A DNA stretch of 64,000 bases from Escherichia coli (GTDB taxonomy: Bacteria; Pseudomonadota; Gammaproteobacteria; Enterobacterales; Enterobacteriaceae): NCBI RefSeq assembly GCF_030013595.1, contig NZ_CP122768.1; one strand, given 5' to 3'. The position numbers were made by a program. Of this stretch, positions 21,642-24,600 are shown one piece after another (position 1 is the first letter of the stretch; every line of letters starts with the position of its first letter).

Positions 21642-24600
21642 GGAATGTTCATCTTGTGCTGCTGCACGGATGGGGACTGAATGCCGAAGTGTGGCGTTGC
21701 ATTGACGAGGAACTTAGCTCGCATTTTACGCTGCACCTTGTTGATCTGCCCGGTTTCGGGCGCAGCCGGGGATTTGGTGCGATGTCACTTGCTGATATGG
21801 CCGAAGCCGTGCTGCGACAGGCGCCTGATAAAGCCATTTGGTTAGGCTGGAGTCTGGGCGGGCTGGTGGCAAGCCAGATTGCGTTAACCCATCCCGAGCG
21901 TGTTCAGGCACTGGTCACCGTGGCGTCGTCGCCTTGTTTTAGTGCTCGTGACGAGTGGCCGGGGATAAAACCGGACGTGCTGGCGGGATTTCAGCAGCAA
22001 CTCAGTGATGATTTTCAGCGTACAGTGGAACGGTTCCTTGCGTTACAAACCATGGGTACTGAAACGGCGCGCCAGGATGCGCGGGCGTTGAAGAAAACCG
22101 TACTGGCGTTACCGATGCCGGAGGTGGACGTGCTTAATGGCGGGCTGGAAATCCTGAAAACGGTCGATCTCCGTCAGCCGCTGCAAAACGTGTCCATGCC
22201 GTTTTTGCGATTGTATGGTTATCTCGATGGTCTGGTGCCGCGCAAAGTGGTGCCGATGCTGGATAAACTCTGGCCGCACAGCGAGTCGTACATTTTCGCC
22301 AAAGCGGCCCATGCGCCGTTTATTTCGCATCCGGTCGAGTTTCGTCACGTGCTGGTGGCGGTGAAGCAGAGGGTGTAGGTGGCTTTTGAAATGGCGAGAC
22401 AGAACTTTACTGACTCGCCGCAGCCAACTCTTCTTCTGACACCCCGGTAAAACGCATGATGTCCGCAAGAGGGACTCCGGATTACAGCATTCTTTTGGCG
22501 ATATCCGGGGCTTCCAGGCGTCGATCCAATAAATAACCAATCAGGTAACTAATAAGATATTCTCTTTCTGCATCTGTCATTAAAACCATCCTTTACGTTA
22601 TTGATGATTTATTTCAGCAAGGTCTTCAACCGTCAGGCTGGTAAATCGCAGAACGTCCTCAAGAGAGACTCCGGCATCCAGCATGGTTTTGGCAATATTT
22701 AGGGCGTTGGTACGTATACCTTTCTGAAACCCCTCTTGCCGCAATCTTTCCGCAATAGTCATTAAACTCTCCTTGTGTTTCGGTGAACGTTCGGCAACAC
22801 CGTCGATAAAATCGTTAAAACGTACCGCATCGCCAGTTTGCAGTATGTAATTAAACAGCCCTTTGATTTGTCTGTCATTAGCGTATCCACTACTTAATAA
22901 GCAGGCCATTTGCTCTACCAGCCCCATCAGGTCGCGTTGACGAATATGTTTTTGAATTAACTCCAGCAGCGCCATACGTCGGTGCTGCATGATTTCATCA
23001 TCAGGCATGACGGTGACATCAATCAGCGGAAATGCAGAGGCATAAAGCTGCCTTGCCAGGTTGGGATCGGCGAAACAATCAAGCCAACACAGCGAATAGG
23101 GATAGGGGCTTTCAATACCGTGGTAAAACAACAATGGCACCACCATCGGCAACGTTTTGTATCCGGCATCAAGGTGATTTTGCATTGCGGCAATGGCGTA
23201 ACGCATCATGCGAAATGCGATCAGTTTGTTTGAGGTGCTTTGATGTTCAATCAGACAATAGATATATCCTGGTCCTTGTTCCGTTTTCACCGACCACAGC
23301 ACGTCGGAATAGCTTTCACGCAGATCGTCATCAATAAAGCTGCTCGACTCCAGCTTGAGGGTTTTCATATCACAGAGCGCGTGAATGGGTGCCGGTAAAT
23401 GAAACGCAAGAAAATCGCGTGCCGTCTCCGGTTGGCGTAAAAAGAGTTTGAACAGCGCATCGTGTGGGGTGGAACTCTGCTTTTTGCTCATGGCGTTCCT
23501 TCACCTGTTGTTTGAATGCCGCGACTCTACGCGCCACTCCACACCTGTGCATTAGCCAGTTTTCATCCCTGCGAGACGCTTTCAGAGGAACTTACGTCGC
23601 GCTGCAAGAATTGCATTTTTATGGAAAGCCGCACGCAAAAAAGCCCGGATGCAAACGCATACCGGGCTTTTCAAAACAGGCGATGGAGTATGGTTAACGC
23701 AGCGCCCACCACTCGCGCAGACAGACTTTGCCTTCCGGGCAGCTTTTACAACTGCCAGAGAGGCAGCCGTCAGGTTCTTCCTGAATCCGCACGGCTTTGC
23801 CCATGCTTTCCAGCTGTTGCAGCATGGCGTTAATCATTGGCTGCGGCGTGTTCAATGTCTGGCTTATCTGGGCCGCTTCCATACGGCCCCGTAACGCCAG
23901 CAAATCACGTACCTGAATAAGTGAAGCCATTAATGGCAATCACCGGTGGTGCTGGCTGCGCAGCAACTGCTTACCGATTTGCGCGTTGCCAGCAGTTCGA
24001 TATTCACCCGGCTACGCGCGCGGCGCAGCAGACCGATAACCACGATGTTAAACAGGATAACCGCCAGAATGCACACCAGGCTGTAAGTTGGATGCTGGCT
24101 GTAGCTGGCGACTTGATAGAACAATGTTGCCAGCGAGTAAGCGATATTCAGCCCCCACAGGATGGAGAAGCCCATCCAGCCACGGCTTGATTCACGGGCG
24201 ATAGCACCCATCACCGAGATGCACGGTACGTACAGCAGGACGAAAATCAGGTAGCTGTATGCGGCAGCTGCGCTACCGAATTTCTGATCCATCACACCCA
24301 TCGCCCCGGTACCCATTTCGCCGTCGCCTTTGCTCGCTTCAATCGGGTTCATCAGTACGCTAAGGCTGAAGGTGTCTTTCAGGCTCTGCCAGGTTTCATC
24401 TACCGCACTGAACAGCTCTTCACCGAGGTTAAATTCCGCCGGATTGAACTCTTCGTCCTGAATATTTTCTGCGGTGTAGAGGGTGTTGAGCGTACCCACC
24501 ACCACTTCTTTCGCCATGGCACCTGTAAACAGGCCAACCGTTGCCTGCCAGTTATCTTCATGCACGCCAATCGGCTTGAAGACCGGGGTGATCACCCGGC

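What the first reader, a model, noticed from the sequence alone, without database searches (positions are those of the whole stretch)
22406..22579. Free-standing Rpn C-terminal-domain-like small ORF downstream of rpnA, interrupted by an in-frame stop
Between bioH and rpnA the minus strand encodes a 57-codon frame that begins at a Met equivalent to the internal Met near the RpnA C-terminus and ends with a tail closely similar to RpnA's last ~30 residues, but contains one in-frame TAA. If my recollection of the literature is right that Rpn C-terminal domains made from internal starts act as small antitoxin-like regulators of the full-length nuclease, then a duplicated, stand-alone, now-interrupted copy is worth a second look.
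Basis: partly seen in the sequence, partly recalled or inferred. Interest (0 to 1): 0.55.

Follow-up and report, generated by a model that had tools for sequence, protein, structure and literature searches.

The report
Dead spare antitoxin gene after rpnA
Just after the E. coli toxin gene rpnA lies a broken second copy of its small built-in antitoxin gene, a decaying example of a gene type already described next to two sister genes, and in the laboratory strain K-12 the same module forms the actual end of RpnA.

Summary
The true span is 22407-22580 on the minus strand, with the in-frame TAA at 22482-22484. The 57-codon frame has its own Shine-Dalgarno and ATG, both homologous to the internal start of rpnA. 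It is a stand-alone copy of the Rpn C-terminal (RpnS) module, here called S2. Zhong et al. 2023 described such "rpnSs" genes downstream of rpnC and rpnE.

- **Similarity:** S2 is 46% identical to the resident RpnA tail (E=5e-9) and 83% identical to the K-12-type RpnA tail (E=3e-16).
- **Link to K-12:** The K-12-type allele equals a two-module allele minus exactly 206 nt. K-12 RpnA-S (PDB 7TH0) is therefore S1 residues 1-11 joined to S2 residues 20-57.
- **Distribution:** 853 of 5426 complete E. coli genomes have the two-module form. At least 826 of them carry the TAA. None has CAA, GAA or TAT in that context.
- **Ancestry of the stop:** Intact syntenic genes in E. ruysiae and other cryptic clades, and the E. 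albertii remnant, have CAA (Gln). The stop is therefore derived.
- **Selection:** S2 evolves nearly neutrally (pN/pS about 0.5-1). The resident tail shows no replacement changes at all.

Verdict: a pseudogene and a new member of a known kind. Interest is modest.

The parts
22598..23491 (-). rpnA (297 codons), the full-length recombination-promoting nuclease RpnA-L. This allele ends in ...EINHQ.
   Evidence: ORF list. NCBIfam NF007361 RpnA equivalog, 675 bits. RefSeq annotation of the identical locus L001.
22598..22762 (-). S1, the resident in-gene RpnA-S module. It has an internal ATG at 22762..22760, preceded by AAGGAG at 22773..22768. It encodes 54 codons, [54 protein letters not shown], plus the stop.
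   Evidence: Sequence and alignment to the K-12-type allele. The internal start was shown experimentally for K-12 rpnA by Zhong et al.. No replacement differences were seen in any pairwise comparison.
22581..22597 (-). A 17-nt spacer between the S1 stop and the S2 start. It contains the Shine-Dalgarno AAGGA (22593..22589), 8 nt before the S2 ATG. An alternative in-frame ATG at 22589..22587 has no usable SD.
   Evidence: Nearly invariant in 18 aligned loci.
22485..22580 (-). The 5' part of S2 (codons 1-32): MTDAEREYLISYLIGYLLDRRLEAPDIAKRML. It includes the four-residue repeats YLIS/YLIG/YLLD, starting at residue 8.
   Evidence: Repeat copy number varies in the E. albertii fusions P0012-P0014.
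22482..22484 (-). The in-frame TAA at S2 codon 33. The codon is CAA (Gln) in E. ruysiae, other cryptic clades and E. albertii. It is GAA (Glu) in K-12-type rpnA.
   Evidence: The TAA 36-mer is present in 826 complete genomes. The CAA, GAA and TAT versions give 0 hits.
22407..22481 (-). The 3' part of S2 (codons 34-57, SGVPLADIMRFTGVSEEELAAASQ, plus the terminal TAA). It is orthologous to the last 24 codons of K-12-type rpnA and corresponds to the last two helices of RpnA-S.
22524..22729 (-). The 206-nt segment absent from K-12-type alleles. It comprises S1 codons 12-54 plus stop, the spacer, and S2 codons 1-19. GGG(G) microhomology lies at both edges.
   Evidence: Alignments (L024 versus L003).
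21608..22378 (+). bioH, the convergent neighbour. Its stop lies 28 nt from the S2 stop, the same distance as from the rpnA stop in K-12-type genomes.

Best explanation
The segment is a pseudogenised stand-alone RpnS gene ("rpnA_Ss", called S2 here). It is a second copy of the small antitoxin module of the RpnA toxin-antitoxin gene, placed 17 nt after the rpnA stop with its own ribosome-binding site and ATG.

The two-module arrangement (rpnA with in-gene tail S1, followed by S2) is old in the genus Escherichia. S2 is still an intact 57-codon gene in E. ruysiae and other cryptic clades. In E. coli proper, a C-to-T change turned codon 33 (CAA, Gln) into TAA. The change falls at the end of the long first helix and removes the two C-terminal helices.

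The module no longer evolves under protein-level constraint. In the K-12-type lineage, a 206-nt deletion (or the equivalent recombination) fused S1 codons 1-11 to S2 codons 20-57. The 3' two-thirds of S2 therefore survive there as the working C-terminus of RpnA-L and RpnA-S.

**Shown:** homology, synteny, the derived and near-fixed stop, relaxed constraint, the exact 206-nt relationship, and the existence of mosaic alleles.

**Inferred:** that no functional antitoxin is made from S2 in this strain, and that the two-module state preceded the fused state.
For: - **Homology:**. Intact orthologues carry Pfam PF27070 HTH_Rpn_C. An AF2 model of the repaired ORF has pLDDT 84 and four helical segments, and its top PDB fold hit is 7TH0 RpnA-S.
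- **Synteny of intact 57-codon genes** (feoC-rpnA-S2-bioH): L010-L015, L017-L019, L024. Carriers of the CAA allele have flanking genes only 90-95% identical to the window, so they are not E. coli proper.
- **Derived stop:** CAA is found in cryptic clades and in E. albertii. TAA was found in all 9 sampled E. coli complete genomes.
- **Frequency:** 853/5426 genomes have the full spacer. At least 826 carry TAA. None has CAA, GAA or TAT.
- **Further decay:** a second stop in L020 and four extra changes after the stop in L021/L023.
- **Relaxed constraint, window versus L012:** N-domain Nd/Sd = 2/22, S1 = 0/2, S2 = 8/4. S1 shows Nd = 0 in every pair. S2 pN/pS is about 0.5-1.1, including between intact alleles.
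- **Exact 206-nt relationship** with GGG microhomology.
- **Precedent for the class and for loss by fusion:** Zhong et al..
- **Annotation:** PGAP sometimes annotates the relic as a pseudogene with an internal stop.
Against: - The RBS and ATG of S2 are conserved in all 18 aligned loci. No terminator is predicted between S1 and S2. A 32-residue peptide may therefore still be translated.
- The substitution counts are small, so pN/pS near 1 cannot separate neutrality from diversifying selection. RpnS modules are known to be hypervariable.
- The direction of the 206-nt event (deletion versus insertion by recombination) is not proven. E. whittamii carries the fused K-12-type tail, so both arrangements cross species boundaries.
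- The key link L024 is a single 5x metagenome contig.
- No expression data exist for this allele.
Confidence: 0.8

Rival explanations
1. The stop created a new functional product. The 32-residue helix-1 peptide (MTDAEREYLISYLIGYLLDRRLEAPDIAKRML) is still translated from the conserved RBS and ATG. It would act through the dimerisation helix, for example as a modulator or decoy of RpnA-S/RpnA-L oligomerisation.
For: The SD and ATG are conserved in all aligned loci. The TAA is near-fixed across diverse E. coli backgrounds. In RpnA-S, the first helix is the dimer interface and determines specificity. The stop lies at the end of the helix-1-equivalent region.
Against: Codons 1-32 show mostly replacement changes (Nd/Sd of 3/0, 4/0 and 5/1), so there is no sign of purifying selection. 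The S2 helix 1 (YLIS/YLIG/YLLD) is unlike the resident S1 helix 1 (FQKG/IRTN). One added repeat is enough to abolish cross-neutralisation in RpnC. There is no family hit for the 32-mer.
Confidence: 0.07
2. The relic is kept because it serves as a silent donor cassette. Recombination between S1 and S2, or between alleles, generates new RpnA tails with new toxin-antitoxin specificities. This would resemble silent cassettes in antigenic variation, or orphan toxin tips in CDI/Rhs loci.
For: Mosaic alleles exist:
- the K-12 type, S1(1-11)+S2(20-57);
- the O145 type, S1 up to ...RFT and then an S2-like end;
- P0016, P0003 and P0010, with other junctions.

Crossovers downstream of codon 33 bypass the stop. 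Zhong et al. speculate that RpnL may itself initiate such recombination.
Against: That recombination has happened does not show selection for keeping the donor. Once fused, the donor is lost. About 80% of E. coli genomes lack S2 as a separate unit. Near-neutral evolution of S2 is also what a plain pseudogene predicts.
Confidence: 0.1
3. The history runs the other way. A K-12-type single-tail rpnA was ancestral in E. coli, and this allele arose when a foreign 206-nt piece (new tail + stop + RBS + start of another S module) recombined in. That event displaced the original 3' end, which then decayed.
For: Relative to the K-12-type allele, the window shows a clean 206-nt insertion. E. whittamii has the single-tail form. 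rpnA and S1 are more similar between species (95-97%) than the flanking genes are (90-93%), which hints at transfer.
Against: The inserted piece starts in frame inside one S module and ends in frame inside another, so a two-module donor must already have existed. Two-module or S2-derived alleles are found in E. ruysiae, other cryptic clades and E. albertii. This rival concerns origin only and gives the same present-day status, a relic.
Confidence: 0.25

Closest known systems
rpnE_Ss (ypaA) and rpnC_Ss, stand-alone RpnS genes downstream of rpnE and rpnC (Zhong et al. 2023, PMC10400941)
   Same: A small gene on the same strand immediately after an rpn gene. It is homologous to that gene's C-terminal RpnS module, has its own start and contains a four-residue repeat region. 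It is present in only some strains and can be lost by deletion or by fusion to the rpn N-terminal domain.
   Different: It lies downstream of rpnA, which the paper's main text does not mention. It is interrupted by a near-fixed nonsense codon in E. coli. It is only 46% identical to the resident tail. Its repeats are hydrophobic-rich (YLIS/YLIG/YLLD), not one hydrophobic residue plus three charged or Gly residues. YpaA is expressed, whereas expression here is unknown.
RpnA-S of E. coli K-12 (PDB 7TH0), the intragenic antitoxin of RpnA-L
   Same: The last 35 residues are 83% identical. The DNA downstream as far as bioH is the same. K-12 RpnA-S residues 12-49 are orthologous to S2 residues 20-57.
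   Different: In K-12 the module is fused in frame to rpnA and is intact. Here it is free-standing, has a different helix-1 N-terminal half and is truncated at the residue equivalent to Glu25.
Displaced 'orphan' C-terminal toxin/immunity modules downstream of cdiA and rhs genes (comparison from general knowledge, not tested here)
   Same: A variable C-terminal module sits downstream of the active gene. It often lacks function but is available for recombination that swaps the active tip.
   Different: The orphan here is an antitoxin-type oligomerisation/HTH module, not a toxin tip with an immunity gene. It has its own translation start. No evidence of selection for retention was found.

Membership tests
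RpnSs (stand-alone downstream RpnS gene; Pfam HTH_Rpn_C PF27070) | Sequence homology to an Rpn C-terminal (RpnS) domain | tested here: met
   BLASTP E=3e-16 to the K-12-type RpnA tail and 5e-9 to the resident tail. phmmer E=4e-12 to 7TH0. Intact orthologues carry a precomputed PF27070 hit. The Pfam copy behind profile_search gave no hit for this family.
RpnSs (stand-alone downstream RpnS gene; Pfam HTH_Rpn_C PF27070) | Lies directly downstream of an rpn gene on the same strand | tested here: met
   It starts 17 nt after the rpnA stop on the minus strand. The arrangement is the same in 853 complete genomes.
RpnSs (stand-alone downstream RpnS gene; Pfam HTH_Rpn_C PF27070) | Own ribosome-binding site and start codon | tested here: met
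   AAGGA lies 8 nt before the ATG. It is homologous to the rpnA internal start region and conserved in 18 loci.
RpnSs (stand-alone downstream RpnS gene; Pfam HTH_Rpn_C PF27070) | Variable four-residue repeat tract beginning 8-20 residues after the Met | tested here: met
   YLIS-YLIG-YLLD begins at residue 8. The number of repeat units varies in the E. albertii fusions P0012-P0014. The composition differs from the published rule.
RpnSs (stand-alone downstream RpnS gene; Pfam HTH_Rpn_C PF27070) | Uninterrupted ORF encoding the whole helical domain | tested here: not met
   A TAA at codon 33 removes the last two predicted helices. The ORF is intact only in E. ruysiae and other cryptic clades and in rare metagenome contigs.
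RpnSs (stand-alone downstream RpnS gene; Pfam HTH_Rpn_C PF27070) | Protein made, and able to block RpnL toxicity | not testable with these tools
   Needs tagging or ribosome profiling, plus toxicity assays.
Functional protein-coding gene (any) | Purifying selection on replacement sites | tested here: not met
   S2 pN/pS is about 0.5-1.1. The rpnA N-domain gives about 0.02, and S1 shows Nd = 0. Counts are small.

The most novel reading that the evidence does not exclude
S2 is not just debris. It would be one half of a two-cassette system in which recombination between the in-gene tail (S1) and the downstream silent copy (S2), possibly triggered by RpnA-L itself, repeatedly rewrites the specificity-determining C-terminus of an anti-phage toxin-antitoxin gene. 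On this reading the well-studied K-12 RpnA-S is one product of such a switch. The nonsense codon would keep the spare copy silent until a crossover downstream of it brings the 3' part back into use.
Probability: 0.1. Interest if true: 0.65.

Novelty: new member of a known kind. Interest (0 to 1): 0.3.

Why it matters
- It extends the downstream RpnSs class to rpnA. The class was previously reported, in the text available here, only for rpnC and rpnE.
- It shows that the experimentally characterised K-12 RpnA-S antitoxin (crystal structure 7TH0) is an evolutionary fusion of two modules.
- It gives a natural series for testing how Rpn toxin-antitoxin specificity changes: intact in E. ruysiae, nonsense in about 16% of E. 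coli, and fused in most E. coli.
- For genome annotation, the 219-nt bioH-rpnA spacer should be marked as a pseudogene. PGAP currently does this only sporadically, and labels it "transposase".

Tried and rejected
- **Chance similarity:** rejected by alignment statistics.
- **RNA element, terminator or promoter in the spacer:** Rfam gave nothing meaningful. The only match was a mammalian lncRNA model at 16 bits, E=0.12. The consensus scans found no promoter or terminator.
- **Plasmid or mobile origin of S2:** tblastn against PLSDB found only three 4.8-4.9 Mb "plasmid" records that are evidently chromosomes. The 206-nt segment occurs nowhere else in E. coli genomes.
- **Pfam scan through profile_search:** no significant hit for the repaired ORF. 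That library copy apparently lacks PF27070, so I relied on precomputed hits instead.
- **Intact versions in complete E. coli genomes:** the cryptic-clade CAA haplotype 54-mer and the CAA, GAA and TAT 36-mers all gave no match. The TAA control found 826 genomes.
- **Genus-wide scan with full-length RpnA:** it returned few Escherichia loci and mostly Photorhabdus/Xenorhabdus paralogues. It was useful only to show that 12 of 78 Rpn loci elsewhere also carry a self-similar downstream S module, and that E. whittamii has the fused tail.
- **Supplementary data of Zhong et al.:** not held. I could not check whether an rpnA downstream copy is listed there.

Full report

The window is an Escherichia coli chromosome segment with the gene order nfuA-gntX-bioH-rpnA-feoC-feoB. 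bioH (21608-22378, +) and rpnA (22598-23491, -) converge on a 219-nt spacer.

On the minus strand the spacer holds the frame MTDAEREYLISYLIGYLLDRRLEAPDIAKRML*SGVPLADIMRFTGVSEEELAAASQ*. The in-frame TAA is at 22482-22484.

The similarity is well beyond chance:
- 46% identity over 39 residues to the window's own RpnA tail, E=5e-9.
- 83% identity over 35 residues to the K-12-type RpnA tail, E=3e-16.
- E=4e-12 to PDB 7TH0, the crystal structure of RpnA-S.

Homology also covers the translation signals. The spacer sequence AAGGATGGTTTTAATGAC matches AAGGAGAGTTTAATGAC at the internal start of rpnA. The copied unit is therefore RBS + ATG + coding module.

**2. What is known about such modules?**

Zhong et al. 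2023 (PMC10400941) showed four things:
- Rpn C-terminal domains (RpnS) are translated from internal starts and neutralise the toxic full-length nuclease (RpnL).
- Their first helix is the dimer interface and carries variable four-residue repeats that set specificity.
- Second, stand-alone copies (rpnE_Ss = ypaA, rpnC_Ss) lie downstream of rpnE and rpnC in some strains.

The main text does not mention a downstream copy for rpnA, and the supplements are not held. A search of later literature found nothing further.

**3. Population picture in E. coli**

- The full 219-nt spacer is present in 853 of 5426 complete E. coli genomes.
- In roughly 4,500 others, only its first ~135 nt match. That match lies inside the 3' end of rpnA, which there ends 28 nt from bioH.
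- The relic is therefore orthologous to the real C-terminus of the common, K-12-type RpnA.
- Aligning the two forms shows a clean block that only the window allele has.
- That block occurs nowhere else in E. coli genomes or on plasmids.

Other states of the locus also exist:
- An N-terminally deleted rpnA pseudogene, for example strain MNCRE44.
- An O145-type allele whose tail follows S1 up to ...RFT and then switches to the S2/K-12-like end, with a mazEF pair inserted before bioH.
- S1 variants lacking one four-residue repeat (L006, L017).

**4. Intact relatives and the age of the stop**

A protein search with the repaired ORF found intact 57-residue proteins (P0001-P0010) that carry Pfam HTH_Rpn_C. 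Their genes sit at the same place, feoC-rpnA-S2-bioH.

- Alleles with CAA (Gln) at codon 33 come from genomes whose flanking genes are only 90-95% identical to the window. These are E. ruysiae and other cryptic clades, even where the record is labelled E. coli.
- E. albertii keeps only a remnant, in which an rpnA N-terminal piece is fused to S2. It also has CAA, and it has a variable number of YLIS/YLLD units.

The stop is therefore derived, by a C-to-T change. Within complete E. coli genomes:
- All nine sampled two-module loci have TAA.
- A 36-mer centred on the TAA hits 826 genomes. Every possible megablast seed must span the codon.
- The same 36-mer with CAA, GAA or TAT hits none.

Some genomes show further decay. 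L020 has a second stop, and L021/L023 have four extra changes after the stop.

Rare repaired forms appear only in metagenome contigs:
- TAA to TAT in L019.
- Replacement of the segment by K-12-like sequence in L017 and L024.

**5. Relation to the K-12 allele**

L024 carries an S2 reading MTDAEREYLISYLIGYLLG-EQSKALHIAKIMLESGV.... The K-12-type allele equals this two-module allele minus exactly 206 nt, with GGG(G) at both edges. In the window this block is 22524-22729. It comprises S1 codons 12-54 plus stop, the spacer, and S2 codons 1-19.

K-12 RpnA-S is thus S1 residues 1-11 joined to S2 residues 20-57. The block starts in frame in one module and ends in frame in another, so a two-module donor must have existed whichever way the event went.

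I therefore favour "two-module first, fusion later", which matches the loss-by-fusion route of Zhong et al. The direction is not proven, for two reasons:
- E. whittamii has the fused tail, with an IS605-like insertion in rpnA.
- L024 is a single low-coverage contig.

**6. Is it still under selection?**

Nei-Gojobori counts are shown below for the window versus E. ruysiae-like L012.

| Region | Replacement differences (observed/sites) | Silent differences (observed/sites) |
|---|---|---|
| rpnA N-domain | 2/573 | 22/156 |
| S1 | 0/123 | 2/39 |
| S2 | 8/133 | 4/41 |

- S1 shows no replacement change in any comparison, although silent changes are present.
- S2 shows pN/pS of about 0.5-1.1. This holds between TAA alleles, between TAA and intact alleles, and between intact alleles.
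- Codons 1-32, upstream of the stop, are no better conserved than the rest.

The counts are small, and RpnS modules are hypervariable by nature. Neutrality and diversifying selection therefore cannot be separated, but there is no sign of purifying selection.

**7. Structure and signals**

An AlphaFold2 model of the repaired ORF has mean pLDDT 84 and helices at 3-19, 24-33, 38-45 and 49-55. Its best PDB fold match is 7TH0.

The stop at codon 33 corresponds to Glu25 of RpnA-S. It removes the last two helices and leaves only the region equivalent to the dimerisation helix.

No promoter, terminator or Rfam family is detected in the spacer. S2 would therefore be co-transcribed with the rpnA-S message, and a 32-residue peptide could still be made. 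This is untested.

**8. Conclusion**

The finding is a correct observation with a largely correct interpretation. The segment is a pseudogenised "rpnA_Ss".
- It is a new member of a known kind.
- It is near-fixed as a nonsense allele in the ~16% of E. coli genomes that retain it.
- It is intact in sister species.
- It is fused into the working gene in most E. coli, including K-12.

My estimates for its present-day status:
- About 0.8 that it has no present antitoxin function in this strain.
- About 0.07 that the truncated peptide is functional.
- About 0.1 that the copy is maintained as a recombination donor.

The mosaic alleles show that S1/S2 exchange has happened. They do not show that the copy is kept for that purpose.

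Downstream S copies are common in other genera too. Of 78 Rpn loci, 12 have one, mostly in Photorhabdus.

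Noticed in passing
L007 484-1115 (E. coli O145:NM FWSEC0002), the position equivalent to window ~22379-22597: In O145-type genomes a PemK/MazF toxin gene and an AbrB/MazE antitoxin gene are inserted between bioH and rpnA. There rpnA has a hybrid S1/S2 tail. The bioH-rpnA junction looks like a small hotspot for toxin-antitoxin cargo.
   Followed up: partly
L002 and L004 1529-1903 (strains TUM11356 and MNCRE44), equivalent to window rpnA: Some E. coli genomes keep only the last 375 nt of rpnA, annotated as a pseudogene missing its N-terminus. 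The nuclease domain is deleted, but the RpnS-coding part with a K-12-type tail remains.
   Followed up: no
L025 2646-3943 (Escherichia whittamii Sa2BVA5): rpnA is interrupted near codon 215 by a ~1.3-kb insertion. The insertion encodes an IS605 OrfB/TnpB-like protein (MKRAYKYRFYPTPDQVELL...). The tail there is the fused K-12 type.
   Followed up: partly
window 22598-23491 versus L010-L018: The rpnA N-domain and S1 are 95-97% identical between E. coli and cryptic-clade genomes. The flanking genes gntX, bioH and feoC are only 90-93% identical. This suggests either unusually strong constraint or exchange of rpnA between species.
   Followed up: no
L006 and L017, S1 region (equivalent to window ~22690-22705): The resident tail S1 varies by a 12-nt (four-residue) unit: [14 protein letters not shown] versus FQKGIRAIAK. 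This is the repeat-number variation that Zhong et al. describe for RpnS proteins.
   Followed up: partly
window 22379-22597, and bioH/rpnA 3' ends: rpnA-bioH is listed among convergent pairs with overlapping transcription (excludons) in K-12 (PMC12288877). In this allele the two stop codons are 219 nt apart rather than 28 nt. Any 3' overlap would then fall on the relic, not on rpnA coding sequence.
   Followed up: no
proteins P0011, P0015, P0024, P0030: Several database ORFs begin as S2 (MTDAEREYLISYLIGYLL...) and then shift frame across the stop region before returning to ...VSEEELAAASQ. Most come from automated Logan assemblies. They may be further frameshift decay or assembly errors.
   Followed up: no
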